Below are positions 1 to 13,344 of a stretch of DNA of 13,753 bases, piece after piece. Under the pieces are notes generated by a model. The model saw only the letters and a program-made list of their open reading frames with translations. It ran no database searches and had not been told where the DNA came from. The position numbers were made by a program, and so were the translations under genes. The stretch is from a virus (taxonomy: Duplodnaviria > Heunggongvirae > Uroviricota > Caudoviricetes). Within the stretch, counting starts at the first letter, position 1; each line of letters opens with the position of its first letter. Location: the IMG/VR virus record IMGVR_UViG_3300029181_000068, positions 1 through 13,753 of that record; one strand, 5' to 3'.

Positions 1-1928
1 TTACTGACAATGCCGAGCTTCTCCAGCAACCAGGAAACGCCGGATTTCAGGGAGTCCAGCGGATGCATGACCATATTCAGCCCTTCCGCCAGTGCCTCCC
101 CGAATCGCCGCCCCATTGCCGCTGCGCTCTGCAGTTCGGCAGAGGTCGACTTAACGGGCGTCAGCAGATCAGTAAACCAGCCCCACAGCGCCTGCACTTT
201 GTCGCCAATCCACTGGAACACGGGCTTAAGCGGTTCGAACGCTGCACTGATGGGACCTGCCGCCGCTTTGAATCCTTCCACCACGCCACCGAGAAATGCG
301 GTGATGGGTTGCCAGTATTTCCAGACAACCAGCGCCACGCCCGCCAGAGCAGTAACCACAAGACCTATCGGACTGAGCAGAGCACCTAACAGACCAGATA
401 TGGCATACAGGGCAACGCGCAGCATCGCCAGTGGACCAGATGCCAGTACTCGCAGCACCGTGCCTGCGGCGGTCAGTCCACCGCGCAGTACCGCCAGAGG
501 ATTCATAAACATCACAGCAACAGCACGTAAACCGGATAATCCAGACCGCAAAAGTGCAACCGGCGCACCTGCTACAGTTTTCAGGACATTTCCCGTCAGT
601 GATGCCGTGCGGCGCAAAGACGACAACGGCGCAGTAAGTAAACCTGCGGCGTTGCCCGATGAAGCAAGCCCGCGTCGCAGCAGTGCCAGTGGTGCGCCAG
701 CCAGCCAGGACAACGCGCTGCTGGTTCGAGTTACTGCTGCCGTAACGGAAGATAACGTTTTGATACCCAACACAGAGAATCCCAGACGGATCACTGCCAG
801 CGGCCCCAGCACTGCAGCCAGCGCCACCGCTAAGGTGCCGAGGCCGACGGTAACCGCAGCCACAACAGCCGATGCTTTCATCAGTGTGCCTGTCAGTTCC
901 GGGTTAGCTTCCACCCAGCGACGCAACGCCCCCGTGACGCTTTTCACCGTGTACAGAATATCCATCAGCGGCTGGCGCAGCGTTTCGCCCAGGCTGCTGA
1001 AGGTGTTCTGCGCTCCGGTTTTGACCAGCAACCACTGCGCAGAAAGTGAATCCTTGTTAATGTCGGATTCTTTCTGCATGGAGCCAAGCGCATCATTGCC
1101 CGCTGTCAGTTTTAACTGACGCTGCAGTTCTGGCAGGTTGTTTGCCAGTTTCGCCGCGTCATCGCCAAACTCTTTACCAAACAACATAGTCATGGCAGAC
1201 AGGCGCTTGTCCTGCGGCAGCGCGTTTACCTTCTCCAGCACGCGCTGGATGGTTCCCATCGCATCCTTCGTCATCTGCTTTTCAATCACTTCAGGATTGA
1301 GTTTCAGCAGATTCATCCCTTCAAAGAAACTCTTGCTTTGCATGGTGGCAATGGACAATTCACGCACCATCGCGTTTGCTGCACTGGCTGCAACCTCTGG
1401 CGCAGCGCCCAGTGTCAGGAAGGTGGAACCCAGCGCCGCCGCTTTACGATAATCCAGACGGTCAGCCACACCGCCCAGACGTTGCATCACATCAATGATG
1501 TCTGCCCCTTTCGACATGGCGTTATCATCCAGATAGTTCAGCGCATCACCGAGCTGTTCAATATTGCGGGTGGGGATTTTGTAGAGCTGGGCGATTTTCC
1601 CCAGACTTTCTGACAGTTCATCCGCTGGCAGCTCAAAGGCTGTTGCCGCCTTTGCTGCCGTACTGGCGAAGGCCAGCAGGTCACGTTTCTGATCTTCCCA
1701 GCTGTCGTCAGGGTTTGCGACGTTCATGCGCGCACCACCTTCAACCAGTGCAGCGAAGTCCACCGCACCGTTTTCCATCGGCAACTGTTCGCTGGCAGCC
1801 TTGATGGCATCCTGCATTTCATAAAAACGTGCAGTGCGGTTGCCATTATCGTCACGCAGACCATTGACCTGCTTTGCCACACCTTTCATGGCATCTTCCA
1901 TGCTGGTATAGCTTTTTACTGCCGCCAT
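1..1928 (-). CDS. Phage tail tape measure protein-like (P2 gpT-type), partial: 3' end lies beyond the window start; 5' region probably missing and fused to truncated gene I
   Basis: Minus-strand frame is open from the stop at 2058-2060 down to position 3 and continues off the window, so it is absent from the ORF track. Hand-translated at both ends: ATG at 1928-1926 gives MAAVKSYTSMEDAMKGVAKQVNG; the left edge reads ...AAMGRRFGEALAEGLNMVMHPLDSLKSGVSWLLEKLGIVS. A quicker, unverified read of the middle suggests an Ala/Gly/Leu-rich product with long hydrophobic stretches, as in tape measure proteins. The + strand ORF 10..1119 is its Ser/Thr/Pro/Arg-rich antisense shadow. Family assignment is from memory, not a search. 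Confidence 0.55.
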   Translation of the reverse strand, partial: MAAVKSYTSMEDAMKGVAKQVNGLRDDNGNRTARFYEMQDAIKAASEQLPMENGAVDFAALVEGGARMNVANPDDSWEDQKRDLLAFASTAAKAATAFELPADELSESLGKIAQLYKIPTRNIEQLGDALNYLDDNAMSKGADIIDVMQRLGGVADRLDYRKAAALGSTFLTLGAAPEVAASAANAMVRELSIATMQSKSFFEGMNLLKLNPEVIEKQMTKDAMGTIQRVLEKVNALPQDKRLSAMTMLFGKEFGDDAAKLANNLPELQRQLKLTAGNDALGSMQKESDINKDSLSAQWLLVKTGAQNTFSSLGETLRQPLMDILYTVKSVTGALRRWVEANPELTGTLMKASAVVAAVTVGLGTLAVALAAVLGPLAVIRLGFSVLGIKTLSSVTAAVTRTSSALSWLAGAPLALLRRGLASSGNAAGLLTAPLSSLRRTASLTGNVLKTVAGAPVALLRSGLSGLRAVAVMFMNPLAVLRGGLTAAGTVLRVLASGPLAMLRVALYAISGLLGALLSPIGLVVTALAGVALVVWKYWQPITAFLGGVVEGFKAAAGPISAAFEPLKPVFQWIGDKVQALWGWFTDLLTPVKSTSAELQSAAAMGRRFGEALAEGLNMVMHPLDSLKSGVSWLLEKLGIVS

Positions 1929-2356
1929 CACTGGCGCACCCATTGCCAGCCCTGCAGCCGTGGTGGTGGCTCCGGCACCTGCAATACGATCACGCACCTC
2001 CAGCGAACGGGCATATCCAGGCGAAACGTGCCCGGTGTTTCTCCGGTCTGCCACCACTCAATAATGCGGATCAGGAATCCGAACGGCTCCACCACCCGCC
2101 GCACGGCACTGGTGGTCCCTTTATGCTGATGAATATAAAAAGCATCCTTCACCACCTGGCGCTTGACGCTTTCTGTCCAGCCCTCGTCCCAGCGATCCAC
2201 AGAGAACGCCCAGGCGAGATAAGGCAGGAAACTGACCGGACAGGTTGCCGGATTCCACAAATCACGAAGCGGCACCTGCAGATCAGAAATCCCGCTGCAG
2301 GTTTGCGCCAGTCGGCGCTCCAGTGGTGTTGAACCCGGTGGCAGCAGACTATTCAT
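1928..2356 (-). CDS. I: Phage tail protein I (P2 gpI-like), apparently C-terminally truncated or frame-disrupted after about residue 114
   Basis: ORF of 142 aa. N-terminal ~114 aa (MNSLLPPGSTPLERRLAQ...LWNPATCP...LAWAFSVDRWDE...GTFRLD) resembles P2 gpI as I recall it (~176 aa). The last 28 aa (MPVRWRCVIVLQVPEPPPRLQGWQWVRQ) are Trp/Pro/Arg-rich and look like out-of-frame translation. Stop TGA at 1928-1930 overlaps the ATG at 1928-1926 of the downstream tape-measure frame. Confidence 0.75.
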   Translation of the reverse strand: MNSLLPPGSTPLERRLAQTCSGISDLQVPLRDLWNPATCPVSFLPYLAWAFSVDRWDEGWTESVKRQVVKDAFYIHQHKGTTSAVRRVVEPFGFLIRIIEWWQTGETPGTFRLDMPVRWRCVIVLQVPEPPPRLQGWQWVRQ

Positions 2357-2945
2357 CCGTTCCTCCGTTGGTTACGCTCCACTGCGTACATGATGCCGCC
2401 TGTGTTTTGTTCAGGACCACATCCGCCAGAGGAGAAGCCAGCTCCACACGCTGCACCCCCTCAACATGCAGGGCGGCAAAGATGGCGCTACGGCGAATAT
2501 CCCGACCAAGACGCGTCTGACTGGCGATGTACTTCTGCAGGCTGGCTTTTGCCGCTGCCATTACCGGCTCTGCTTCCGGTCCAGGATAGAGAAAAATGGT
2601 GGCTTCCACGCGATACGGGATGATTTCTGCGCTGCGAACCGTAAGACGGTCAGCCACCGGGCGGACGTTCTCACTGTTCAGAGCTTTTTCCACCACGTCC
2701 AGCAGGTCTTTTTCTGCAGTTCCATCGCCTTCGCGGCTAAGGACAGTCAGCACCACCTCTGCAGGTGCCGGGCTGGTTGCACTGGCATCCGCCACCCGAC
2801 CGTCGGCGCTTCGGGCATGAAATTCATAAGCTGCAGTTGGCCCCGCAACAGAAAGCCCTTCAAAGGCTGCAGGTACACGCAGGCGCAACGCTTCATCGCT
2901 TTCCATCACAGCTGCAACGGGCGGCAGCCTCCAGTACAAACTCAC
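2349..2945 (-). pseudogene. J: Baseplate assembly protein J (P2 gpJ-like), C-terminal ~2/3 only; N-terminal third missing
   Basis: 198-aa ORF whose track start is a GTG. The sequence PPVAAVMESDEALRLR...FEGLSVAG...HARSADGRVAD...RPVADR...LYPGPE...RLGRDIRRSAIFAALHVEGVQRVELASPLADVVL...TDE matches the C-terminal part of P2 gpJ (~302 aa) from memory. No native N-terminus or RBS. Overlaps the 3' end of the V fragment in another frame. Confidence 0.8.
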
Positions 2946-3357
2946 TGGTTTTCATGATGATGTTGTCAGCAGCCTCAATGACCATTGATTTGATGCCCCT
3001 GACATACCAGCGCCCGGTGGCGGGTTCGTATTCAAACCAGCCACCGTCAGGATGTTCTGTCACGCAGGCATCCGCCGACGTCGACGGTGGTGCGAACTGA
3101 TTCGAATAGACAGCGGGCAGCGCAAAGGCGGTTTCCAGATTGCCGCCCAGACTCAGCAGCACCACCTGCTCACCTTCCGATGGTCGCCACCATGTACGGG
3201 CATTCCCGGCACGCAGCGTCAGCCAGCTGATCCAGTTGGTTTCAAGCTCGCCCGTTTTCACCCGGCAAAGCCAGTTTTCCCTGTCCACTTCGGTGACTAC
3301 CCCTGTGCGGATCAGGTTGGTGATAAGGCGCATGATTTCGGTTAATTGTGCGTTCAT
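2893..3357 (-). CDS. V: Baseplate assembly/spike protein V (P2 gpV-like), N-terminal fragment ending in a premature stop
   Basis: 154-aa ORF with ATG at 3357-3355. N-terminus MNAQLTEIMRLITNLIRTGVVTEVD...RVKTG...WISWLTLRAGNARTWWRPSEGEQVVLLSLGGNLETAFALPAVYS has the gpV OB-fold pattern. Shorter than P2 gpV (~211 aa); its reading frame stops at 2893 inside the region where the J frame opens. Confidence 0.75.
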   Translation of the reverse strand: MNAQLTEIMRLITNLIRTGVVTEVDRENWLCRVKTGELETNWISWLTLRAGNARTWWRPSEGEQVVLLSLGGNLETAFALPAVYSNQFAPPSTSADACVTEHPDGGWFEYEPATGRWYVRGIKSMVIEAADNIIMKTSEFVLEAAARCSCDGKR

Positions 3358-3372
3358 AGGGAAAGGTTGCCA

Positions 3373-3930
3373 TCAGGGGAAGAAAGCCGGATTGCTTTCA
3401 CTCAGGACAGCGCCAATCGCTTTATGCAGACGCGCCCGTGACTGGTCCGGCATATCCAGACCGTCTGTCAGCTCCAGCGTCTGCAGCAACAGATCGGCAT
3501 CAAAGCCGGTGGCGGCAAGCATTGCGCTCTGCGCCGCGTCTGCCATTTCCTCTGCCAGCACGGTCTGCACATTGCGATTACCCAGCGGCATCACCCAGCC
3601 ATGACGCAGGGCGTGACGCCCGATCTCCAGCGCCCCGGCATAATCTCCGGCATCAATGCGCCACAGCATCACGTACATCAGCACGTCATCCTGTTGAGCG
3701 CCTCCGGCAGCCAGGACACCCTCCGCCCAGGCGGCGTACTTCGGCAGCAGCTCCACCTTGATTTCCGCTTTTTTGACCGTGGACTGAACGCCCTTGAGAC
3801 GGCGGCGGTCTTCCGCCAGTTGCAGCAGCATCAGGTCATAGCCCGACGCGTGGCGAACGCTGCCGCCCTCGCGGGCGGCCTGTTCAGCCTGAACGCGCAG
3901 GCGATGCTGCCGTGCGGGACTCAGGCTCAT
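3373..3930 (-). CDS. M: Terminase small (endonuclease) subunit, P2 gpM-like; possibly 3'-truncated
   Basis: 185-aa ORF, ATG at 3930-3928, 3 nt after the N stop (TAA 3936-3934). Resembles P2 gpM (QDDVLMYVMLWRIDAGDYAGALEIGRHALRHG, LELTDGLDMPDQSRARLHK). Shorter than the ~247 aa I recall for P2 gpM. Stop at 3373-3375 is only 15 bp from the V start. Confidence 0.8.
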   Translation of the reverse strand: MSLSPARQHRLRVQAEQAAREGGSVRHASGYDLMLLQLAEDRRRLKGVQSTVKKAEIKVELLPKYAAWAEGVLAAGGAQQDDVLMYVMLWRIDAGDYAGALEIGRHALRHGWVMPLGNRNVQTVLAEEMADAAQSAMLAATGFDADLLLQTLELTDGLDMPDQSRARLHKAIGAVLSESNPAFFP

Positions 3931-3933
3931 GAA

Positions 3934-4992
3934 TTACGCTCCGGTTTCTGCTGCTGCGGCGCTGAAGTCGCCAATCTGGATGTTTTCCACCAGTGCGGCG
4001 CAGCGGTAGTCCTCAACCACATAGGCTTCGTTAACGGATTCAAAGTTTTCAATCCGGTCACGTTTCGGGTTGTCGATAACTGAGCGGCGACGGGTGTCTT
4101 CCTGCCAGTAGATGGACAGGTTATCCAGACGGGTGATCAGCAGTGCATTCGGCGGGAAGAACGGCGCACGCACGGCCTGCAGGCCACCCATGCGTTTCTG
4201 ACTGATGATCATATCGGCAGCCAGTTTTTCACTGTTTTCCTGCTCTTTGTTGACCAGCGGGAAATACTTGTCAGACAGCAGTTCACGACCGCAAATCACC
4301 ACCAGATCGTCATCGTCCTGGTAGACCACATCGATAAGCTCATTGACGGCATCCATCACCACGGCGTCCAGGTTGGCATATTCGCCACCTTTCCCGACTT
4401 TCACCGCACCCGGTGTGGTTTCACCGCCCGTGGTGGTGCTGCCCATGACGTGATCCGGTGCATCTTCACGGATTTTCTGCAGCCAGCCTTTGTTCACATC
4501 CTGCAGCAGCGGGTTTTCGCTACGGTTGGAGGTTTTCGCACGCTTCACGCCGTTAAAGCCGATCATGATGCGGTCCAGAGCCTGACGTTTCACGATGGCG
4601 TCACGGATGCGCACCTGGAAATCCTGAAACTTCGCCCACAGGTCCAGCTTCGCGTAGGTCAGCACCGTGTCAAAGTTGGTCTGCTCGCATTTATATTCCA
4701 CATCGACCATCAGCGTCGGATCGACAGGTTCACGCTCTTTCGCGGTGGTGTCAGTGGTTCCGGCAATGGTGCTGCCAACTCCCAGCCCCAGCAGCTGACC
4801 GGACTGCTCAGTCACTGGCGTGACGTTAATCAGCGTCAGGAAAGCGGCGGACTGCTGGATCTGGTCTTCCAGCGTCTGCTGCACAGACGGCTCCACGGTG
4901 AACTTGCTGGACAGTTCTTCAACTGCCACACCGTTCAGACGCGCCAGCTGCTGCAGGTAAGCGTTAAAAGCAAAGCGGGTATTCTTCTTCAT
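3934..4992 (-). CDS. N: Major capsid protein, P2 gpN family
   Basis: 352-aa ORF. Near-collinear resemblance to P2 gpN as recalled (FNAYL...LNG, KFTVEPSV, IGFNGVKRA, NPLLQDVNKGWLQK, KVGKGG.YA.LDAVVMDA, DKYFPLVNKEQENSEKLAADMIISQKRMG, ENFES...YVVEDY). GGAG upstream of ATG 4992-4990. Confidence 0.95.
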   Translation of the reverse strand: MKKNTRFAFNAYLQQLARLNGVAVEELSSKFTVEPSVQQTLEDQIQQSAAFLTLINVTPVTEQSGQLLGLGVGSTIAGTTDTTAKEREPVDPTLMVDVEYKCEQTNFDTVLTYAKLDLWAKFQDFQVRIRDAIVKRQALDRIMIGFNGVKRAKTSNRSENPLLQDVNKGWLQKIREDAPDHVMGSTTTGGETTPGAVKVGKGGEYANLDAVVMDAVNELIDVVYQDDDDLVVICGRELLSDKYFPLVNKEQENSEKLAADMIISQKRMGGLQAVRAPFFPPNALLITRLDNLSIYWQEDTRRRSVIDNPKRDRIENFESVNEAYVVEDYRCAALVENIQIGDFSAAAAETGA

Positions 4993-5008
4993 CGGGTTTT
5001 GTGCTCCA

Positions 5009-5842
5009 TCAGCAATTGGTCAGAGTGTCAGCGGGGGCGTTACCGCCTGTTGCACGCTGGCGGTAGTCCTGGCGACTGTCTTCATGACTCAGCTTGTCCA
5101 CCAGTTCGTTAAAGGCGGTTTGCTGTGCCTGCAGGGCAGTCTCCAGCTCAGACAGGCGTTCTTCCTGCTCAGACAGGGATTTTTCGGTGCGTGCGCTCAG
5201 GTTCTGCTGCTCAGTGGCGACCAGCTCCACGGCCTTATGCACATCAGAGAACCGGGCGTCATCGGACTGCTCTTTTTTGGTAAACAGCGCCGTGACGCGG
5301 GCAAACAGGGACGGTTTGTCGTCCTGGATTTCTTCCAGTTCGATCACCGTTTCCTCTGCAGCGGTAAAGAGATTGGCAGGATTCTGCTTGCGGTTTGCCA
5401 GCGGGTTATGGGCTGCACTGGCGCTGAATGTCAGCATTTCCGTACCCAGACTGGCAGGGTCATCAGTGGCAGCCAGGCCGACCAGATAGGCTTTGCCCGT
5501 ATCAGCGAACTTCGGGCTGACTTCCATAGAGGTGAATAATTTCTGGCCTTTTTTCACCAGTTCCACCAGGGACTCCGTTGGCTCAACGTCGGCATACAGC
5601 GCCATCTTGCCTGCCAGCGGACCTTCCGTGATTTCTTCAGCAAACAGCGCCGTCACCTTGCCGTAGCGGTTAAAGGTGCTGTCCGGCAGATAAGACTTGA
5701 TGTGCTCAAGGTTAATCAGCGCGGTATACACCGCCGGGTTGTAGCTGGCTGCCATCTGTTCCAGCCATTCACGCTGGATTTCGCGTCCGTCGGTGGTGGC
5801 ACCTTCCACCCCGATGCGAAAACGCTTTGCTTTCACTGTCAT
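5009..5842 (-). CDS. O: Capsid scaffolding protein, P2 gpO family
   Basis: 277-aa ORF. Resembles P2 gpO (FRIGVEGATTDGREI, INLEHIKSYLPD, TSMEVSPKFADTGKAYLVGLAATDDPASLGTEML, ASDDARFSDVHKAV, C-terminal ATGG...TNC). GGAG 8 nt upstream of ATG 5842-5840. First gene of the leftward head operon. Confidence 0.95.
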   Translation of the reverse strand: MTVKAKRFRIGVEGATTDGREIQREWLEQMAASYNPAVYTALINLEHIKSYLPDSTFNRYGKVTALFAEEITEGPLAGKMALYADVEPTESLVELVKKGQKLFTSMEVSPKFADTGKAYLVGLAATDDPASLGTEMLTFSASAAHNPLANRKQNPANLFTAAEETVIELEEIQDDKPSLFARVTALFTKKEQSDDARFSDVHKAVELVATEQQNLSARTEKSLSEQEERLSELETALQAQQTAFNELVDKLSHEDSRQDYRQRATGGNAPADTLTNC

Positions 5843-5920
5843 GAGCCGTGCTCCGTTAGAAAAAACTTACTGGAGCCTTATGGTTGCGGTGATGGGGGCA
5901 GTGAAACAATGCGCGGTATT

Positions 5921-5938
5921 TGTACCGACAACCACACA
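5921..5938. promoter_or_regulatory. TGT-N12-ACA dyad (Ogr/Delta-type late activator box) in the divergent O/P late promoter region (5843-5984)
   Basis: Exact TGTaccgacaaccacACA in the 142-bp gap between divergent O (minus) and P (plus). P2-family late promoters carry TGT-N12-ACA centred near -55. The spacing fits the leftward O promoter best (dyad centre ~5929; plausible -10 CATAAG on the minus strand near 5876-5881; O ATG at 5842). Confidence 0.45.
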
Positions 5939-5984
5939 AACCGCAGGCGGGGAAAGCCTTCATTCAAGGCTGTAGGTTTGTGCC

Positions 5985-7751
5985 ATGAACACCACACTGA
6001 CACCCGCAGATCTCGATCCCCGTCGGCAGGCCATGCTGCTGTACTTTCAGGGATACCGCGTAGCCCGCATTGCTGAAATGCTGGGCGAGAAAGTTGCAAC
6101 CGTTCACAGCTGGAAAAAACGCGACAAGTGGGGTGACTATGGGCCGCTGGATCAGATGCAGCTCACCACCGCCGCACGCTACTGCCAGCTCATTATGAAG
6201 GAGCACAAAGAAGGGAAAGATTTCAAAGAGATTGACCTGCTGGCGCGCCAGTCGGAGCGCCATGCGCGGATCGGCAAGTTTAACAATGGCGGCAACGAAG
6301 CCGACTTAAACCCTAACGTCGCCAACCGCAACAAAGGCCCGCGCCGTCAGCCGGAAAAGAACGTTTTCACCGATGAACAGATTGAGAAGCTGGAAGAAAT
6401 CTTTTATTCCTCCATGTTCAACTACCAGCGCCACTGGTGGGAAGCCGGAAAAACCAACCGCATCCGCAACCTGCTGAAGTCACGCCAGATCGGCGCGACC
6501 TTTTACTTTGCCCGTGAAGCCCTGATTGACGCCCTGCTTACCGGACGTAACCAGATTTTCCTTTCTGCCAGTAAGGCACAGGCGCACGTCTTTAAGCAGT
6601 ACATCATCGACTTTGCCAAAGAAGTTGAGGTGGAGCTGAAAGGCGATCCTATGGTGCTACCTAATGGCGCAGCATTGTACTTTCTCGGCACCAACGCCCG
6701 TACGGCGCAGAGCTACCACGGCAACCTGTACCTTGATGAATATTTCTGGATACCGAAATTCCAGGAACTGCGCAAAGTTGCCTCCGGGATGGCCATTCAC
6801 AAGAAATGGCGACAAACCTACTTTTCCACGCCGTCCAGCCTGACCCACAGTGCCTATCCGTTCTGGTCCGGTGCGCTGTTTAACCGGGGCCGCGCCAAAG
6901 CGGACAAGGTGGATATTGACCTGACCCACAGCAATCTTGCGCGCGGCCTGCTCTGCCCTGACGGACAGTACCGCCAGATAGTCACTGTGGAAGATGCGGT
7001 GCGCGGCGGCTGTAACCTGTTCGACCTCGACCAGTTGCGCATGGAGTACAGCCCGGACGAATACCAGAACCTGTTGATGTGCGAGTTTGTGGACGATCTC
7101 GCGTCCGTGTTTCCGCTCAGCGAGCTGCAGGCGTGCATGGTGGACAGTTGGGAAGTCTGGACCGACTTTCATGCACTGGCCCTGCGCCCGTTTGGCTGGC
7201 GCGAAGTCTGGATCGGATACGACCCGGCGAAAGGCACGCAAAACGGCGACAGCGCCGGATGCGTGGTGGTGGCACCGCCAGCCGTGCCGGGTGGTAAGTT
7301 CCGCATTCTTGAGCGTCACCAGTGGCGCGGGATGGACTTCCGCGCCCAGGCTGACGCCATCAAAAAACTGACCGAACAGTACAACGTGACCTATATCGGT
7401 ATCGACTCAACCGGCGTTGGTCACGGGGTTTACGAGAACGTGAAAGCGTTTTTTCCTGCCGTCCGGGAGTTTGTCTACAACCCCAACGTTAAAAACGCCC
7501 TGGTACTCAAGGCCTACGACATTATTAGCCACCGCCGCCTGGAGTTTGACGCAGGGCACACCGACATAGCGCAGTCCTTTATGGCAATCCGTCGCGCCAC
7601 CACTGCCAGCGGCAACCGCCCGACCTATGAAGCCAGCCGCAGCGAAGAAGCCAGCCACGCCGATCTGGCCTGGGCAACAATGCACGCACTGTTTAATGAA
7701 CCGCTGCAGGGCGAGTCCGCCAATACCAGCAATATTGTGGAGATTTTTTGA
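5985..7751 (+). CDS. P: Terminase large (ATPase) subunit, P2 gpP family
   Basis: 588-aa ORF; P2 gpP is ~590 aa. Resembles the P2 terminase ATPase subunit (MLLYFQGYRVARIAEMLGEK, KSRQIGATFYF Walker A-like, NLYLDEYFWIP, IGYDPA...GDSAG). Stop TGA at 7749-7751 overlaps the Q ATG. Confidence 0.95.
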   Translation: MNTTLTPADLDPRRQAMLLYFQGYRVARIAEMLGEKVATVHSWKKRDKWGDYGPLDQMQLTTAARYCQLIMKEHKEGKDFKEIDLLARQSERHARIGKFNNGGNEADLNPNVANRNKGPRRQPEKNVFTDEQIEKLEEIFYSSMFNYQRHWWEAGKTNRIRNLLKSRQIGATFYFAREALIDALLTGRNQIFLSASKAQAHVFKQYIIDFAKEVEVELKGDPMVLPNGAALYFLGTNARTAQSYHGNLYLDEYFWIPKFQELRKVASGMAIHKKWRQTYFSTPSSLTHSAYPFWSGALFNRGRAKADKVDIDLTHSNLARGLLCPDGQYRQIVTVEDAVRGGCNLFDLDQLRMEYSPDEYQNLLMCEFVDDLASVFPLSELQACMVDSWEVWTDFHALALRPFGWREVWIGYDPAKGTQNGDSAGCVVVAPPAVPGGKFRILERHQWRGMDFRAQADAIKKLTEQYNVTYIGIDSTGVGHGVYENVKAFFPAVREFVYNPNVKNALVLKAYDIISHRRLEFDAGHTDIAQSFMAIRRATTASGNRPTYEASRSEEASHADLAWATMHALFNEPLQGESANTSNIVEIF

Positions 7752-8776
7752 TGGGAAAGAGTAAGAAAAACCGCGCTGCGGCGACGAATCAGCTCAAGCA
7801 TAAAAGCCAAACTTCAGCCGAAGCATTCAGCTTTGGCGATCCCGTTCCTGTTCTGGACCGCCGTGAACTGCTGGACTATGTGGAATGCGTACAGATGGAT
7901 CGCTGGTATGAGCCGCCCGTCAGCTTTGACGGACTGGCACGAACCTTCCGCGCCGCCGTGCATCACAGCTCACCAATTGCGGTGAAATGCAACATTCTGA
8001 CCAGTACCTACATCCCTCACCCGCTGCTCAGCCAGCAGGCTTTTTCACGTTTTGTGCAGGACTATCTGGTATTTGGTAACGCCTACCTGGAGAAACGCAC
8101 GAACCGCTTCGGTGAAGTTATCGCCCTTGAGCCTGCTCTGGCAAAATACACCCGACGCGGGTTAGACCTGGATACCTACTGGTTTGTGCAATACGGTATG
8201 ACAACCCAGCCGTATCAGTTCACGAAAGGCAGCATTTTTCATCTGATGGAACCTGACATCAACCAGGAGATCTACGGCCTACCAGGTTATCTTTCTGCCA
8301 TTCCGTCAGCCCTGCTCAACGAGTCCGCCACGCTGTTCCGCCGGAAGTATTACATTAACGGCAGCCATGCAGGCTTCATCATGTACATGACCGATGCCGC
8401 GCAGAACCAGGAGGATGTGAACAACCTCCGCAATGCGATGAAAAGCGCCAAAGGCCCTGGCAACTTCCGCAACCTGTTTATGTACTCGCCTAACGGCAAA
8501 AAGGACGGGCTTCAGATCATCCCGTTGTCAGAAGTCGCGGCGAAGGATGAATTTCTGAACATCAAGAACGTCAGCCGTGATGACATGATGGCGGCACACC
8601 GCGTACCGCCTCAGATGATGGGAATTTTGCCGAATAATGTTGGGGGTTTTGGTGATGTGGAGAAGGCGAGCTGCGTCTTCGTAAGAAATGAACTATTACC
8701 ACTTCAAAAAAGATTCATGGAAATAAACAGATGGCTTGGTCATGAAATTATAAATTTTGAAATATATACATTATAA
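7751..8776 (+). CDS. Q: Portal (capsid portal vertex) protein, P2 gpQ family; last ~30 codons AT-rich
   Basis: The ORF track starts at TTG 7748; the likely start is ATG 7751 (MGKSKKNR...), overlapping the P stop as TGATG. 341 aa; P2 gpQ is ~344 aa. Portal-like throughout (GNAYLEKR, YWFVQYG, GLPGYLSAIPSALLNE, YYINGSHAGFIMYMTD, MMGILPNNVGGFGDVEKA). Codon usage turns AT-rich from ~8680 (AGA, CTA, TTA, ATA codons). Confidence 0.95.
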   Translation: MGKSKKNRAAATNQLKHKSQTSAEAFSFGDPVPVLDRRELLDYVECVQMDRWYEPPVSFDGLARTFRAAVHHSSPIAVKCNILTSTYIPHPLLSQQAFSRFVQDYLVFGNAYLEKRTNRFGEVIALEPALAKYTRRGLDLDTYWFVQYGMTTQPYQFTKGSIFHLMEPDINQEIYGLPGYLSAIPSALLNESATLFRRKYYINGSHAGFIMYMTDAAQNQEDVNNLRNAMKSAKGPGNFRNLFMYSPNGKKDGLQIIPLSEVAAKDEFLNIKNVSRDDMMAAHRVPPQMMGILPNNVGGFGDVEKASCVFVRNELLPLQKRFMEINRWLGHEIINFEIYTL

Positions 8777-8813: not shown

Positions 8814-9875
8814 TTAATATTCAAAATTATTTTCTTCAATAGAGAACTCAATCCCTCGGGATAACTTATCAATATTCACATCAAATGCGATATCTGTTAA
8901 TTCACCATCCTCGATTTCATACATAACTTCAATTTCAATATCGAAACTAATCTCTTGAACTTCAGTTCGTGTGGTTGTCTCCATTGGAATCATTACTTTA
9001 TCTTCGCTATCCCAATACCCATTATTAAAGTCTGGACCAGAAACAGTAACTTCAAAATCTACAGAAACAGAGAAGGTCGCTAGACAATAATTATTGTCAA
9101 TCTTAATTATTGATGGTTCAAAGTCATCAATATTGACGACTTCAAATGAATCCAATTCAGCGTCTTCCCAAGTTGAAACGTTATATCCATCGGCATCATT
9201 GAGTTGGGCAATTACGTCCGCTCTTATGTCTTCACGTTTGCTTTCGATAAACTGCATCAATTTATTACTTAATTCGTTTGTATGCGTATTGTATTCACCT
9301 AGAAACTTATCAAGTGAATCAATTTGATGAAGATTGTTTTTACCATCACAATAATTTTTTAAGTCACTATCCTCAGAAATGATATACACATCTTCATCAT
9401 TAACAAATCGCTCTACCGCAGCTAAAGTGATTGCATCAGGAAACTCACTTTTTTTCTTATTTTGCCCAAATGGTGGTTCTTTGCCAAAGTATTTATCTAA
9501 AACCTCATTAAGATCTATCACTTCTATTGTAGCTAATTTGGCGTGACATCCTTTCAAAAAATCATCAAAAACTTTTTGTGCTGCTTCGTGAATTTCATGT
9601 TCGTTAAATTGCTGAAAAAAACCATGGAGCGGTCCATTATCAATACTATTCAAAAGCCTAGCTTTTCTTTGTACTGTGTTTATAGCCTGCAGAGCATCCT
9701 TTATTGATTCCTCTATTTTACCTTTTACTTCTCTCTCTACAACTGTAGTTGTAATTAAGACTAAATCACCTTTCGCACATAATTCATGGAAAGCTTTAAA
9801 TGCTACCCCCTCAAAATGAAGACCAGCCTTTACGTACGTTTGTGTGTCAATAAATACCTTATTTGTTTTAAGCAT
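8814..9875 (-). CDS. PIN-like nuclease-domain protein with an acidic C-terminal domain; candidate stand-alone defence or abortive-infection gene
   Basis: 353-aa ORF in AT-rich DNA. ATG 9875-9873 with AGGA 5 nt upstream. N-terminal ~170 aa carry PIN-like acidic motifs (KVFIDTQ; LVLITTTVVEREV; EFPDAITLAAVERFV; VYIISEDSDL). C-terminal ~150 aa are very Asp/Glu-rich with alternating hydrophobics (FDIEIEVMYEIEDGELTDIAFDVNID). Domain call is by motif pattern only. Confidence 0.7.
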   Translation of the reverse strand: MLKTNKVFIDTQTYVKAGLHFEGVAFKAFHELCAKGDLVLITTTVVEREVKGKIEESIKDALQAINTVQRKARLLNSIDNGPLHGFFQQFNEHEIHEAAQKVFDDFLKGCHAKLATIEVIDLNEVLDKYFGKEPPFGQNKKKSEFPDAITLAAVERFVNDEDVYIISEDSDLKNYCDGKNNLHQIDSLDKFLGEYNTHTNELSNKLMQFIESKREDIRADVIAQLNDADGYNVSTWEDAELDSFEVVNIDDFEPSIIKIDNNYCLATFSVSVDFEVTVSGPDFNNGYWDSEDKVMIPMETTTRTEVQEISFDIEIEVMYEIEDGELTDIAFDVNIDKLSRGIEFSIEENNFEY

Positions 9876-10001
9876 ACTAATCCTAATAAGTTTTAAGATC
9901 CGCTACAATTGTTTATGTTTATTTTTTATCAATAATCATACGTAGTTAAGATTATCCATGTCGAAAAATTAAATCAACTTCAATTTATCCTTAAGCGCGC
10001 G

Positions 10002-10020
10002 CTCGTATCCCCGCCACGCC
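10002..10020 (-). other. Candidate cos site (19-nt cohesive end, P2/186-like)
   Basis: Minus strand reads GGCGTGGCGGGGATACGAG followed by CGCGCGCTTAAGG. The P2 left end as I remember it is GGCGAGGCGGGGAAAGCAC then TGCGCGCTGACGG (about 24 of 32 matches; position 5 T as in phage 186). Orientation fits P2: cos, then Q and P transcribed toward cos. It is a GC-rich patch inside otherwise AT-rich accessory DNA. Confidence 0.5.
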
Positions 10021-10382
10021 TGCCCGCTTTATGTAGTGGTTTTCATGCACCTGCATGACATAAGCAAAAGCACGCCAGTTCTGGCTGACTTCAGCAAAAA
10101 CGATCCTCAAACGATCATGCGATCTCATGCGTCATAGTCATGCGCTGCCAAGGGAAGCGTAAATCCGTATCTGAATGACTGCTGAAAAGCGAATCATACG
10201 GGTTTACAAAGATGAAAGTTCGCTGTGAGCGAGAAGCGAACCTTGCAACTTTGTTGGCACAGTTTTAACACCAATTTTTTGAGGATAGCTAGAAAACTTG
10301 TGGCATAAAGGATCAGTTTCCCGATCGAACTTTTTATCAAGAAGGGCTCATAGCAATCGCCAGAAGAAGTGATGTTAAAGTA

Positions 10383-10411: not shown

Positions 10412-10444
10412 ACAGACTAATCCAATGTTTTGTGGAAGGATAAG

Positions 10445-11488
10445 ATGGCAGTCAAGCGCGCATACTACGGTAACGATAGTGACCGAGACTACTTAGAGCG
10501 GATATTTCAGTCAGCTAACATTAACTTTCTCATCGGATCAGGTGCATCCCTCCCAGCGATTAAAGTACTGGGGACAATCGAAACGGATCTTCAGCAGCTT
10601 ATTAATGATGAACAGGAAGATGAATACTTAAGGATGGCAGCTGACTTTTTGTCAGATGTTTGGCTACCTCATGAATGCATGTTGAAGCGCGGCTACGGCA
10701 CCCCCTTCGCACCTCAGGTGATCACCGATTTGGAATGTACCCGTGCAAATTATGATGCATTTATGTCTTCTCTGGAAAAGATACTGACCCGCCGCCGAAC
10801 TGGCCTACTTCCGAGGCGTATTAACGTTTTTACAACTAATTATGATTTATTCATCGAAGAAGCTGCCACACGTAATAACAATATTCTTTTTAATGATGGA
10901 TTCAATAGAAGAGCAAGTATTTTGGGAGATGCGGAATTTGATGCGGGTAGCTTTAATCATTCTGTAAGTGCAACCGGAAATCTGTATAATTATAAAGTTG
11001 AGCTTCCTACTGTTAACCTTATAAAACTTCATGGTTCGCTCTCTTGGCAGCATTCTAAAGGGAAAATCATTTATCGTATTGCAGATATTAAGCCGCTTGA
11101 CTTTCCCACCCTAGCCGAAATGAAAGGATGGGTACTTGCTCATGCACTTATTCTTCCACGTAAGGAGAAGTTTAAAGAGACTCTACTACAGAACGTTTAT
11201 TATGATTTACTGAGAACCTATTCCAACGAGCTTGATAAAGAAGCAACTTTACTAATTGTCTTTGGGTTCTCGTTTGCTGATGAGCACATTGAAACGATAA
11301 CTAAAAAAGCCCTGCGCAACGCCACCCTGAAGCTACTGATCTTTGCTTTCGATGAGGCCAGTGTTAACGGCTTTATGGAGAAATTTCGGGATTACTCAAA
11401 CGTAGAGATTATTTATCGGCCGGGAAGAAATGTTGATTTTCCGGTAATGAATAACATTATCACGTGCTATCTGGGAGGCTCGAGATGA
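10445..11488 (+). CDS. SIR2-like (sirtuin-fold) NAD-binding protein, defence-associated type
   Basis: ORF track starts at TTG 10430; the likely start is ATG 10445 (MAVKRAYYG...), 5 nt after AAGGA. 347 aa. Sirtuin-like motifs: Gly-rich loop FLIGSGAS (10532-10549), VFTTNYDLFIEEA (TQN-like) and IKLHGSLSW (catalytic His region). AT-rich codon usage. Stop TGA at 11486-11488 overlaps the HerA ATG. Confidence 0.9.
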   Translation: MAVKRAYYGNDSDRDYLERIFQSANINFLIGSGASLPAIKVLGTIETDLQQLINDEQEDEYLRMAADFLSDVWLPHECMLKRGYGTPFAPQVITDLECTRANYDAFMSSLEKILTRRRTGLLPRRINVFTTNYDLFIEEAATRNNNILFNDGFNRRASILGDAEFDAGSFNHSVSATGNLYNYKVELPTVNLIKLHGSLSWQHSKGKIIYRIADIKPLDFPTLAEMKGWVLAHALILPRKEKFKETLLQNVYYDLLRTYSNELDKEATLLIVFGFSFADEHIETITKKALRNATLKLLIFAFDEASVNGFMEKFRDYSNVEIIYRPGRNVDFPVMNNIITCYLGGSR

Positions 11489-13344
11489 GCAGGCATTTTA
11501 CTGAAGAGGAAGCGGTGCTCCGTATAGGCGAAGTCTGTGAGGTTTCTGGACGCGCTGTGACAATTTTGGTCGATAAAAACAAAAATCTCAGTGACTTGTT
11601 TTATCAGGGAAAAGTTCTAAGAAATGTATCAGTGGGTAGCTTCATTGAGATCAAAAAAGGTTTCATGAGCCTGATCGGCAAGGTTGAAGCGGAACGAATC
11701 ATTGAGGAAAAACATCTCGCTGGGAGCGGCAGTGATGCCTGGCGATATCGGCGATACCTGACCTCTACTCTTACGGGTTACATTGATCGTACTGGTTGCT
11801 TCATTGGTGGTTCGCGTGAACTACCTCTCATCGGCAATGAAGTCTTCGTGGTAACTGAAGAGATGATACAGACGGTTCATCAGATAGCTGATGCAGACGA
11901 AACTGTAATGAGGTTTACTCGTACAGATCTTGAAGATATTGAAATTGCACTACCAATCAATGGTCTTATTAATTCCCACATTGCCATTTTCGGTAATACA
12001 GGCAGCGGAAAGTCAAATACCCTAGCCGCGCTATACAAAGCAGGTATTGCCCAAGTTAAACATATTCTCGGCAACCACTTTAGTGAAAGATGCAAATTTA
12101 TTCTATTCGACTTTAATGGAGAATATACTGCCCCACGCTGTATTACTGACGAGAAGACGGTTTATAATCTCAACACGCACCATGCAAATGGTGACAAACT
12201 TCCTCTACCCAGAGAGGTTCTACTTGAGCATGATATGCTCTCAGTTCTAACCGATGCAACAGACAAAACACAGAAACCTTTCCTGAAGAGAGTTCTTGAG
12301 TTTCGCAAGAAAGTGATGACTGCTGATAATCCTCTTGAGTTTATGCGCAATATCCTGAAGAAAAAAGTCAGACAAAATCTCTTTAGTAGCGACAAACCCA
12401 AATGCGATACTATAAATCAGTTTCTTAGCCCAATTTTCAAAGATGACCCAGAACTTATATCTGATCTTGAGTATCATTCAACTGCATATAAATGGAAATT
12501 GAGGGGTGGTAGTATTTTCAATACAGAAGCTGATACTGAGCGCTCCTATCTATTCAGTCTTGCAAGCAATTTTTCATTTAAAACTGATATGATTGAAGAA
12601 CTGTTGGACTTTATGTACTTACAGTTAATACAGGAATATTTATCTAACAAGTCTAACCCTGAACATATTTCACCAGTTATAAATAGAATGAGTGCTAACC
12701 GTAAAGATATAGCCAAAATATTTGATACTTCCGGACAGTCTGACTTTTGGGGTGAACATAATTTCACGGTTGTGAATCTAAATATGGTTAATATAACCAT
12801 GAAAAAAACGCTTCCTCTTTTGATAGCCAAGTGGGCTTACAATATGAAGAAAATGTCTACAGAGAAATCTACACTGCACATCATTATAGATGAAGCCCAC
12901 AATATTTTGTCTAATACTTCTTTTCGGGAAACGGAAAGTTGGAGAGATTATCGTCTGGAAACTTTTGAGGAAATCATAAAGGAGGGGAGAAAATTTGGAG
13001 TTTTTATCACAATTTCCAGTCAACGCCCTAATGATATATCGTCGACAATCATATCCCAAGCACACAATTATTTTATTCATCGCCTTATTAATCAGAATGA
13101 TCTGTACGCAATTGAAAAATCAGTATCATATATAGATCGACTGACTGAAGAGTCGATTCCAACGCTATCTACAGGAACCTGTATTTTTAGTGGTATCGTC
13201 TGCCCCATGCCGCTCAAATTAAGGGTAGCTGAACTTCCAATTGAAGAAAAACCTAAGAGTAATACTATTTCCTTCAACGATTTAATACCTGAGAGGCTGG
13301 GAGAGGATGACCAGAGCGACTACGTAATAACCAGCCCTCACTAA
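11485..13344 (+). CDS. HerA-like (FtsK/HerA superfamily) ATPase, partner of the SIR2-like protein
   Basis: ORF track starts at GTG 11464 inside the SIR2 gene; the likely start is ATG 11485 (MSRHFTEEE...), with GGGAGG 6 nt upstream and an ATGA overlap with the SIR2 stop. 619 aa. Walker A FGNTGSGKSNT (11992-12015), Walker B LHIIIDEAH (12880-12900), and a downstream FITISSQRPNDIS motif. AT-rich. Confidence 0.9.
   Translation: MSRHFTEEEAVLRIGEVCEVSGRAVTILVDKNKNLSDLFYQGKVLRNVSVGSFIEIKKGFMSLIGKVEAERIIEEKHLAGSGSDAWRYRRYLTSTLTGYIDRTGCFIGGSRELPLIGNEVFVVTEEMIQTVHQIADADETVMRFTRTDLEDIEIALPINGLINSHIAIFGNTGSGKSNTLAALYKAGIAQVKHILGNHFSERCKFILFDFNGEYTAPRCITDEKTVYNLNTHHANGDKLPLPREVLLEHDMLSVLTDATDKTQKPFLKRVLEFRKKVMTADNPLEFMRNILKKKVRQNLFSSDKPKCDTINQFLSPIFKDDPELISDLEYHSTAYKWKLRGGSIFNTEADTERSYLFSLASNFSFKTDMIEELLDFMYLQLIQEYLSNKSNPEHISPVINRMSANRKDIAKIFDTSGQSDFWGEHNFTVVNLNMVNITMKKTLPLLIAKWAYNMKKMSTEKSTLHIIIDEAHNILSNTSFRETESWRDYRLETFEEIIKEGRKFGVFITISSQRPNDISSTIISQAHNYFIHRLINQNDLYAIEKSVSYIDRLTEESIPTLSTGTCIFSGIVCPMPLKLRVAELPIEEKPKSNTISFNDLIPERLGEDDQSDYVITSPH

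What the first reader, a model, noticed from the sequence alone, without database searches (positions are those of the whole stretch)
3355..3375. Terminase small subunit gene abuts baseplate gene V: the L-to-S block including lysis genes is missing
In P2 the order after M is L, X, Y (holin), K (endolysin), lysA/B/C, R, S, then the V promoter and V. Here the M stop (3373-3375) is 15 bp from the V ATG (3357-3355), with no RBS or promoter between. M is only 185 aa, so the deletion may start inside its 3' end. The element lacks head completion, lysis and tail completion genes.
Basis: partly seen in the sequence, partly recalled or inferred. Interest (0 to 1): 0.45.

Follow-up and report, generated by a model that had tools for sequence, protein, structure and literature searches.

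The report
Deletion scar in defective P2-like prophage
The terminase gene M sits next to baseplate gene V because a 3.4-kb deletion removed the head-completion, lysis and tail-completion genes from a decaying P2-like prophage; this is ordinary prophage decay, except that the break in M lies at a spot where many independent deletions in related prophages also start.

Summary
On the minus strand, a 185-aa M ORF stops at 3375-3373 and a V ORF starts at 3357-3355, 15 nt apart. Compared with near-identical intact Peduoviridae prophages (phage 500465-1; E. coli 503440, E189), the window lacks 3,384 bp. The lost stretch covers M codons 183-216, L, X, holin, endolysin, lysA/B/C, R, S and the Ogr-binding dyad of the V promoter. 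The junction has a 3-nt microhomology (6 of 7 positions match). Q, P, O, N, cos, the PO/PP late-promoter dyad and the defence cargo (a PIN-domain gene and SIR2-HerA) are intact. This is a defective, non-lytic, tail-less P2-like prophage, which is a known kind of element. One result was unexpected. The M-side breakpoint is recurrent. About 24 different junctions in public data start at M nt 547 or nt 523 and end anywhere from L to D; ten were checked at nucleotide level. I tested five possible causes and none explains it: a cos-like site, a hairpin, an invertase site, an ori-like nick site and a CRISPR spacer. The cause is unknown.

The parts
1..2015 (-). Tape-measure (T) gene remnant. It lacks about the first 177 codons and runs off the contig end.
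   Evidence: 99.85% identical to L001 2001-4015 inside the annotated tape measure gene.
2013..2015 (.). Junction J1. A 6,627-bp deletion (L001 4016-10642) joins the I N-terminus to T. It removes the T N-terminus, E/E', tube, sheath, invertase, tail fibre and assembly genes, and the I C-terminus. The microhomology is ATA.
   Evidence: identical in L003; no tblastn hits for the lost genes.
1928..2356 (-). I' ORF: native I residues 1-118, then an out-of-frame tail.
   Evidence: PF09684 1.8e-47; tblastn I 1-118.
2349..2945 (-). J' ORF: only the C-terminal residues 111-302 of baseplate J.
   Evidence: PF04865 profile positions 112-254; tblastn J 111-302.
2918..2926 (.). Junction J2. An 811-bp deletion (L001 11557-12367) removes the J N-terminus, W and the V C-terminus, including the spike apex.
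2893..3357 (-). V' ORF: 144-146 native residues, then about 8-10 foreign codons and a stop. The intact protein is 192 aa.
3358..3383 (-). Retained native V leader. The Ogr-binding dyad of PV lies beyond the junction and is lost.
   Evidence: Alignment with L001; dyad at L001 12855-12872.
3384..3390 (.). Junction J3, the reported finding. A 3,384-bp deletion (L001 12842-16225). Exact microhomology is AAG/CTT at 3384-3386; the imperfect block is AAGCCGG. Window 3384 corresponds to M nt 547, which is recurrent breakpoint hs2.
3373..3930 (-). M' ORF: small terminase residues 1-182, then FFP-stop read from the V leader. It lacks the 34 C-terminal residues.
3408..3408 (.). Position of the second recurrent breakpoint, hs1 (M nt 523). 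It is intact in this window.
3934..4992 (-). N, major capsid protein, intact.
   Evidence: PF05125 3.5e-152; 100% identical to the E. coli 503440 prophage protein.
5009..5842 (-). O, scaffold/protease, intact.
5921..5938 (.). TGT-N12-ACA dyad between O and P, at the position of the Ogr activator site of the PO/PP promoters. Retained.
   Evidence: P2 annotation.
5985..7751 (+). P, large terminase, intact.
7748..8776 (+). Q, portal, intact. It is the most diverged gene (about 83% nt, 87% aa).
8814..9875 (-). Cargo gene with a PIN_12 domain, between Q and cos.
   Evidence: PF16289 1.5e-25; no PADLOC hit.
9995..10030 (.). cos region.
   Evidence: Similarity to the P2 cohesive-end region read in reverse complement; conserved block versus L001.
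10430..13344 (+). SIR2-HerA defence system in the second P2 hotspot.
   Evidence: PADLOC SIR2 6e-211 and HerA 6e-267, both full length; 99.8% identical copies sit in intact prophages.

Best explanation
The window is a whole 13.75-kb metagenome contig carrying a defective P2-like (Peduoviridae, Wadgaonvirus-type) prophage of E. coli. M abuts V because an illegitimate, microhomology-mediated deletion of 3,384 bp joined M nt 547 to the V leader. The deletion removed the last 34 codons of M, head-completion gene L, tail gene X, holin Y, endolysin K, lysA/B/C, tail-completion genes R and S, the end of the O operon and the Ogr-binding site of PV. Two further deletions (0.8 kb J-W-V and 6.6 kb T-to-I) destroyed the baseplate, sheath, tube and fibre genes. 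The element therefore cannot lyse its host or build tails. It still carries intact Q, P, O, N, cos, the PO/PP late-promoter dyad and its defence cargo (a PIN-domain gene and SIR2-HerA). What is shown: the gene content, the three junctions and their microhomologies, and the recurrence of the M-side endpoint. What is inferred: that the deletion was primed by a discrete DNA end at M nt 547, which paired through its last 2-7 nt with the V leader. The evidence for this is that about 16 different deletions share this M endpoint, all at M nt 547 in the seven checked at nucleotide level, and about 8 share nt 523. Also inferred: that loss of the lysis genes let the remnant persist as a carrier of defence genes.
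For: Collinear 98.9-99.9% identity to intact phage 500465-1, with three gaps. The intact gene order is seen in E189, 503440, G3 and P2. Protein alignments show M' truncated at residue 182 and V' at 144-146. tblastn shows all the intervening genes are absent. The same junction appears in independent samples, including a contig with E. coli flanks at the rcdA/ybjL site. For the recurrent endpoint, the same M breakpoint joins to R, D, J, L, Y/K, lysB, lysC, lysA, K, FI, FII and T, among others. One leftward deletion also ends at nt 546/547. All 22 counted events fall within 10 of the 43 codons that could be surveyed (P about 1e-14), and under the assumption that at least 17 of the 22 sit exactly on the two peak nucleotides (10 were checked at nucleotide level, the rest placed from protein sequence), P is about 2e-16. 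Defence cargo was identified. Published work reports that defective P2-like elements keep near-identical defence genes (PMC13586616; PMC9122126).
Against: No complete E. coli genome (0 of 5,426) and no GTDB species representative carries this exact junction, so the remnant is rare. Only the contig is visible, so the missing genes could in principle lie elsewhere in the genome. The cause of the recurrent endpoint is unidentified. The region shows no significant hairpin (z = 0.07), no convincing cos-like site (z about 2.4, with some shuffles scoring higher), no convincing ori-like or invertase site and no matching type I-E spacer. The survey could not see breakpoints upstream of about codon 170. 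Most junctions beyond the 10 checked at nucleotide level were inferred from protein sequences. The identical junction in two haplotypes 2.7% apart (window versus L002) fits either recurrence or descent followed by recombination.
Confidence: 0.85

Rival explanations
1. The M-V adjacency is the natural gene order of an intact phage lineage with a short M.
For: The Pfam small-terminase domain (residues 35-163) is complete in M'.
Against: Every intact relative has a 216-aa M followed by L...S. M' is 100% identical to them up to residue 182 and then reads into the V leader. V, J, I and T are truncated fragments. No phage record covers more than 67% of the window.
Confidence: 0.01
2. The junction is a metagenome assembly chimera.
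For: The window is a metagenome contig. L003 comes from the same run as L004, is identical to the window up to about position 7500, and then carries a different Q gene and cargo, which could be an assembly chimera in that region.
Against: The same J3 sequence was assembled independently by ENA, Logan and JGI pipelines from at least three samples. Overlaps at the junctions are 3-9 nt, far below assembler k-mers. Analogous junctions occur in closed long-read E. coli chromosomes.
Confidence: 0.02
3. The element is an adapted capsid-only satellite, like a capsid-forming PICI derived from P2, that keeps its head genes on purpose and borrows tails and lysis functions from a helper.
For: Q, P, O, N, cos and the PO/PP activator site are intact while all tail and lysis functions are lost. 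The Pfam small-terminase domain of M' is complete.
Against: Useless fragments of T, I, J and V remain. The related remnant L002, with the same junction, has also lost O and half of P. N-M' is only 1 nt different from intact prophages, so there has been no time for adaptation. M' lacks its C-terminal 34 residues.
Confidence: 0.04
4. The shared M endpoint reflects one ancient truncation inherited by all remnants. Later nested deletions and recombination would then account for the different partners and haplotypes, with no breakage hot spot involved.
For: A type-2 junction (CCGGCTTTC) shares 8 of 9 nt with the V leader (CCGCCTTTC), so a second step from an M-R fusion to this M-V junction is conceivable. 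P2-like prophages are highly mosaic.
Against: Each later deletion would have to start exactly at the old junction. The N-M' haplotypes of the remnant lineages differ by 35-49 nt per 1,610 nt, as much as intact phages differ from each other, and the window is 1 nt from intact prophages across all inter-junction segments. There are two separate peaks, at nt 523 and nt 547. One otherwise intact prophage has only a 486-bp M-L deletion from the same point.
Confidence: 0.12

Closest known systems
Escherichia phage 500465-1 (Wadgaonvirus wv5004651, Peduoviridae) and the intact prophages of E. coli 503440 and E189
   Same: 98.9-99.9% nucleotide identity over every retained segment. N-M' differs by 1 nt in 1,610. 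Same gene order, late-promoter dyad and cos. E189 carries the same SIR2-HerA cargo.
   Different: The window lacks 10.8 kb in three blocks. It has different cargo next to Q: a PIN_12 gene, where E189 has an AIPR gene and 500465-1/503440 carry a TIR-domain gene in their hotspot.
Bacteriophage P2 (NC_001895)
   Same: Same late-region architecture: Q-P divergent from O-N-M-L-X-Y-K-lysA-lysB-lysC-R-S, then PV-V-W-J-I-H-G. Ogr dyads and defence morons flank cos.
   Different: Only 44-48% protein identity for V and M. P2 M is 247 aa.
Defective or cryptic P2-like prophages that retain defence hotspots (Rousset et al. 2022, PMC9122126; PMC13586616). The E. coli K-12 ogrK-yegZ(D') P2 remnant is cited from my own knowledge.
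   Same: [quoted passage not shown]
   Different: PMC13586616 reports no obvious pattern in which core genes are inactivated. Here a nucleotide-precise recurrent endpoint in gpM is seen.
Illegitimate recombination with one endpoint fixed at a site-specific nick, as in deletions at the M13 and pC194 replication origins (Michel and Ehrlich 1986; my own knowledge, not checked here)
   Same: One invariant endpoint. The other endpoints are scattered, with only 2-7 nt of homology to the 3'-terminal bases of the fixed end.
   Different: No nickase or nick site is known or recognisable in gpM. Similarity to the P2-type ori is weak.

Membership tests
P2-like phage (Peduoviridae) late region | Q and P transcribed divergently from O-N-M, with family-specific Pfam domains | tested here: met
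   PF05944, PF05125 and PF05929 hits; Q and P confirmed by tblastn; synteny with P2 and 500465-1.
P2-like phage (Peduoviridae) late region | Ogr/Delta-type activator dyad TGT-N12-ACA at late promoters | tested here: met
   Present at 5921-5938 (PO/PP). The PV copy lies in the deleted DNA.
P2-like phage (Peduoviridae) late region | cos site next to Q | tested here: met
   Window about 9995-10030 resembles the P2 cohesive-end region.
Intact (inducible, lytic) prophage | Holin, endolysin and spanin genes | tested here: not met
   No tblastn hit for Y, K, lysA, lysB or lysC in the window. They lie in the 3,384-bp gap.
Intact (inducible, lytic) prophage | Complete tail and baseplate genes and head-completion gene L | tested here: not met
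   L, X, R, S, W, H, G, FI, FII and E are absent. V, J, I and T are truncated.
Intact (inducible, lytic) prophage | Integrase, repressor and replication genes | not testable with these tools
   The contig ends in T' on the left and in the DinI-like region on the right. These genes would lie outside it.
P2 defence hotspot cargo (Rousset et al. 2022) | Variable genes flanking cos between Q and the replication module, encoding known defence systems | tested here: met
   SIR2-HerA has full-length PADLOC matches. The position relative to Q, cos and DinI matches E189. The PIN_12 gene is at the Q-side hotspot but has no PADLOC hit.
Capsid-forming satellite (cf-PICI-like) | A compact element with its own capsid and packaging genes, no tail gene debris, and its own integrase and replication module | tested here: not met
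   Fragments of four tail genes remain. The sister remnant L002 has lost head genes. The integrase could not be examined.
Microhomology-mediated illegitimate deletion | Junction with a few shared bases and no recombinase site or mobile-element end | tested here: met
   3-nt exact microhomology at J1 and J3; only about 2-3 nt exact (CA/CAG) within an imperfect block at J2. No IS is present at any junction. No cix-like site at the breakpoints.

The most novel reading that the evidence does not exclude
gpM of Wadgaonvirus-type P2-like prophages contains a site-specific DNA break or replication-arrest site with discrete ends at M nt 523 and 547, 24 nt apart. This site would repeatedly seed microhomology-primed deletions running from M into the lysis and tail genes. 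If so, many independent lysogens are converted by the same route into non-lytic remnants that still carry defence genes, and the M-V junction in this window is one such product. The agent could be a nickase, terminase, a host nuclease or a polymerase block, and would be new.
Probability: 0.4. Interest if true: 0.6.

Novelty: new member of a known kind. Interest (0 to 1): 0.38.

Why it matters
Taken alone, the junction only shows that this contig is a dead P2-like prophage that still carries SIR2-HerA and a PIN-domain gene. That fits the known picture of defective prophages kept as defence islands. The recurrent, nucleotide-precise M endpoint is what could matter. If it marks a programmed or enzyme-made break, it would give a concrete, testable mechanism for how one common prophage family is repeatedly disarmed, and for why the head genes and defence cargo survive while the lysis and tail genes go. 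It would also give annotators a diagnostic scar for such remnants.

Tried and rejected
1. Exact 31-nt junction scans found nothing in GTDB representatives, JGI metagenomes or IMG/VR. A shorter 20-nt pattern gave only chance hits, plus one intact phage (L021) with an S183F allele reading GGCTTTCGCC.
2. cos-like site at the hot spot: the best local alignment scored 21, against a shuffle mean of 15.6 and maximum of 28. Not significant.
3. Hairpin at M nt 509-547: the DNA fold has z = 0.07.
4. Invertase (cix/hix-like) crossover site: the phage's likely sites (L001 7499-7510 and 9330-9341) do not resemble the breakpoints.
5. P2 A-protein ori nick site: only short GGCGCT/GCAAT/GTCCTG matches, with inconsistent spacing.
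6. Type I-E CRISPR self-targeting. An AAG PAM lies exactly at hs2, and the deleted DNA is on the PAM-proximal side. However, no array in 5,426 genomes holds that spacer.
7. IS-mediated adjacent deletion: no IS is present at any of the 10 junctions read at nucleotide level.
8. DNA-level versus protein-level cause, tested with P2-lineage gpM. Only two clear deletion fusions were found (residue 183 to X, residue 228 to holin). Many partial proteins also end at residues 178-179 because their contigs end there. Inconclusive.
9. Reciprocal (leftward) events: the short-query protein search returned only 6 candidates. One, P0288, is an internal M deletion ending at nt 546/547.
10. Purifying selection on M'. 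The 10 differences between the window and L002 are all synonymous. However, the window's M' is identical to intact phages and L002's alleles mostly match other intact phages, so this reflects standing phage variation, not selection on the remnant.

Full report
**Observation.** On the minus strand, the ORF listing gives a 185-aa ORF at 3373..3930 and a 154-aa ORF at 2893..3357. The sequence shows the M stop (TCA on the plus strand) at 3373-3375 and the V start (CAT) at 3355-3357, with 15 nt between them. Pfam identifies the first ORF as a small terminase (PF05944, 1.5e-40, complete domain) and the second as the OB domain of baseplate V (PF04717).

**What it is.** The window matches Escherichia phage 500465-1 (Peduoviridae, Wadgaonvirus), but the match spans 22.4 kb of phage for 13.75 kb of window. 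A local blastn gives four collinear blocks at 98.9-99.9% identity, separated by three gaps:
- window 1-2015 = L001 2001-4015
- window 2013-2926 = L001 10643-11556
- window 2918-3390 = L001 12368-12841
- window 3384-7753 = L001 16226-20595

The third gap, J3, is the reported finding. It removes 3,384 bp. The lost DNA contains the last 104 nt of M, then L, X, holin, endolysin, lysA, lysB, lysC, R and S. It also contains the intergenic region upstream of V. The same standard order is annotated in intact prophages of E. coli E189, 503440 and G3, and in P2 itself. tblastn with the proteins of the 503440 prophage finds only these in the window: I(1-118), J(111-302), V(1-144), M(1-182) and full-length N, O, P and Q.

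M' is identical to intact 216-aa M through residue 182, then reads FFP-stop out of the V leader. V' has 144-146 native residues and lacks its C-terminal 46 residues. It also missed a third deletion (J1, 6,627 bp), which fuses the I N-terminus to the middle of the tape-measure gene.

**Junction anatomy.** In M coding orientation, native M reads AATCCGGCTT|CCGCCC. The native V leader reads CTGCCGCCTT|TCTTCCCCTGATGG. The window reads AATCCGGCTT|TCTTCCCCTGATGG. The exact microhomology is CTT (window 3384-3386), and the extended block CCG[G/C]CTT matches at 6 of 7 positions. J1 shares ATA. J2 shares about 2-3 nt (CA/CAG) exactly, inside an imperfect block. No IS end or recombinase site is present. 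These are ordinary illegitimate deletions.

The roughly 26-33 nt upstream of the V start are native. The missing Shine-Dalgarno sequence is therefore not a consequence of the deletion; P2's own record places the V-operon transcription start at the V start codon. What was lost is the Ogr-binding dyad TGTATCAGTGCTGATACA (L001 12855-12872), which lies 14 nt beyond the junction. The corresponding dyad between O and P is retained at 5921-5938.

**Reality and origin.** The exact M', V' and I' proteins are on record from JGI/IMG, ENA and Logan, and the longest contig holding V' and I' is 13,753 bp. The window is therefore a whole metagenome contig. The M' protein is encoded on contigs from at least three samples. 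L004 and L005 are 100% identical to the window. L003 is identical from 1808 to about 7500 and carries all three junctions. L002 carries J3 in a further-decayed remnant whose flanks are 100% E. coli at the rcdA/ybjL site. The overlaps at the junctions are 3-9 nt, so assembler chimerism is excluded.

None of 5,426 complete E. coli genomes has J3. No hit was found in GTDB representatives, JGI metagenomes or IMG/VR. The remnant is real but rare.

**Retained parts.** N, O and P are intact and 99-100% identical in protein to those of the 503440 prophage. Q is intact but diverged. Between Q and cos lies a gene with a PIN_12 domain, which has no PADLOC hit. Past cos (about 9995-10030) lies a SIR2-HerA system with full-length PADLOC matches. 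A 99.8% identical SIR2-HerA copy sits in the same hotspot of intact prophages such as the one in E189.

This matches the published picture. P2-like phages carry defence hotspots around cos (PMC9122126). Defective P2-like elements keep near-identical defence genes (PMC13586616).

**Most likely mechanism and consequences.** The element is a grounded prophage. It has no holin, endolysin or spanins, no L, and no usable tail or baseplate. Its small terminase lacks the C-terminal 34 residues. V'-J'-I' are now read-through debris downstream of the O operon. Loss of the lysis genes plausibly allowed the remnant to persist; this step is inferred.

**The unexpected part.** The 90% protein cluster holding M' also holds two other truncations at the same codon:
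- P0004 is M(1-182)-F fused in frame to the C-terminal 86 residues of R.
- P0005 is M(1-182)-F-stop, followed by D'.

Their contigs (L010-L015) and a closed genome (L022) show the same M endpoint at nucleotide level...AATCCGGCTT|. It is joined there to R (TCAGCGG) or to D (TCTGATG). Two other closed genomes (L023, L024) break M 24 nt earlier, at ...GGCGCTG|, and join to two different points in lysB/lysC.

A search with intact M then returned more than 20 separate clusters of 97-100% identical M fusions. In all of them the native part ends at residue 174/175 or at 179-183. Their tails map by tblastn to L, X, K, lysA/B, R, V, J, the fibre region, the invertase, sheath, tube, T and U/D. The partner points are spread over 16 kb downstream. 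One partner is inverted, and one junction carries a 44-nt templated filler.

More junctions were read at nucleotide level. For the later breakpoint (hs2), J, L, Y/K and lysB all join at M nt 547. For the earlier breakpoint (hs1), lysA/B joins at nt 523. In total there are about 24 distinct junctions, 10 of them verified at nucleotide level. Apart from a recurrent poly-A frameshift at K203, no deletion endpoint was seen between codons 184 and 216.

If endpoints were spread evenly over the 43 codons that could be surveyed, the chance of all 22 counted events falling within 10 codons is about 1e-14. If at least 17 of the 22 are taken to sit exactly on the two peak nucleotides (10 were checked at nucleotide level, the rest placed from protein sequence), that concentration within 30 nt has P of about 2e-16. 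In every case the partner resembles only the bases to the left of the break (GGCTT, CCGCCTT, GGATT, CCGATT, CGGTTT, CAGTT). This is what a fixed 3' end pairing with its last few bases would produce. One internal M deletion (P0288) ends at nt 546/547 from the other side.

**One ancestral truncation or a hot spot?** The N-M' haplotypes of the four remnant lineages differ from each other by 35-49 nt per 1,610 nt, as much as intact phages differ from each other. The window is 1 nt from the intact 500465-1 and 503440 prophages. L002, which has the identical J3, carries a different haplotype on both sides, with differences starting 75-76 nt from the junction. Every inter-junction segment of the window is about 99-99.9% identical to the same intact phage. 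The window's deletions are therefore recent, and an inherited-junction model would need several separate conversion tracts. I favour recurrence at a hot spot, but descent followed by recombination is not excluded.

**Cause of the hot spot: not found.** These candidates were tested without support:
- a cos-like site
- a hairpin
- invertase crossover sites
- the P2-type ori nick site
- a type I-E CRISPR protospacer; an AAG PAM abuts hs2 and the deleted side is PAM-proximal, but no such spacer exists in 5,426 genomes

P2-lineage gpM has too few deletion fusions to tell a DNA-level cause from a protein-level one.

**Limits of the survey.** It could not see endpoints upstream of about codon 170. 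It counts 90%-identity clusters, not events. Most junctions beyond the 10 verified were placed from protein sequence.

**Comparison and verdict.** The thing reported is a deletion scar in a defective P2-like prophage, which is a known kind of element, so as reported it is of low interest. What raises the score somewhat is that the M-side breakpoint is one of two nucleotide-precise, recurrent deletion origins in this phage lineage. The literature I could search does not describe this; PMC13586616 states that there is no obvious pattern in which core genes are inactivated.

Noticed in passing
window 3384 (M nt 547) and 3408 (M nt 523); loci L010-L015, L022-L032: Two nucleotide-precise recurrent deletion endpoints in gpM, 24 nt apart. 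About 24 different junctions share them, with partners from L to D across many E. coli/Enterobacteriaceae assemblies. Cause unknown.
   Followed up: partly
window 2013-2015 and 2918-2926: Two further deletions not mentioned in the finding: 6.6 kb (T to I) and 0.8 kb (J-W-V). They leave fragments of T, I, J and V.
   Followed up: yes
window 8814-9875 (-), 10430-13344 (+), cos about 9995-10030: Both cos-flanking P2 hotspots are occupied. One holds a PIN_12-domain gene with no PADLOC match; the other holds a complete SIR2-HerA system. Intact prophages with the same SIR2-HerA carry an AIPR gene in place of the PIN gene.
   Followed up: partly
L003 versus window 7500-8758 and beyond: L003 is identical to the window through all three junctions up to about 7500. 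It then has a diverged Q gene and different cargo (PDDEXK_GAPS4 locus). This is either a cargo swap after the deletions or an assembly chimera, since L003 and L004 come from the same run, ERR589870.
   Followed up: partly
L027 4546-4589: A complex junction: M nt 547 joins a 44-nt copy from the holin/endolysin region, which then jumps to the invertase gene. This is a templated filler typical of template switching. P0093's tail maps in inverted orientation.
   Followed up: no
L021 3701-3720 (IMG/VR UViG_2563366981_000002): An intact phage carries the M allele GGCTTTCGCC (S183F) exactly at hs2. With this allele, the microhomology with the TTTC partner sites would be 4-5 nt.
   Followed up: no
M codon 203 (poly-A run GTGAAAAAAGAC); proteins P0051, P0056, P0062: A recurrent frameshift in the A-run near the M C-terminus gives 248-271-aa variants, with dozens of cluster members.
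   Followed up: no
M codons 34-40; proteins P0078, P0079, P0101, P0103: Fusions and truncations at the N-terminal side of M also cluster. They include an N(1-163)-M fusion at an LLQ microhomology, a host-gene-M fusion at M34, and a 579-member cluster of partial proteins starting at E40.
   Followed up: no
L012-L014 about 7151-8537; L031-L032 2653-3922: Other remnants join the Dam methylase gene directly to O, deleting A, cos, the hotspots, Q and P, in addition to the M-anchored deletion. These sit at a different chromosomal site (near smpB in L012; the neighbouring ssrA is inferred, not seen).
   Followed up: no
P2-lineage gpM proteins P0194 and P0196: Hundreds of partial P2-type M proteins end at residues 178-179 because their contigs end there, at the position homologous to the hot spot. 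This points to a repeat or divergence boundary at the same place in another lineage.
   Followed up: no
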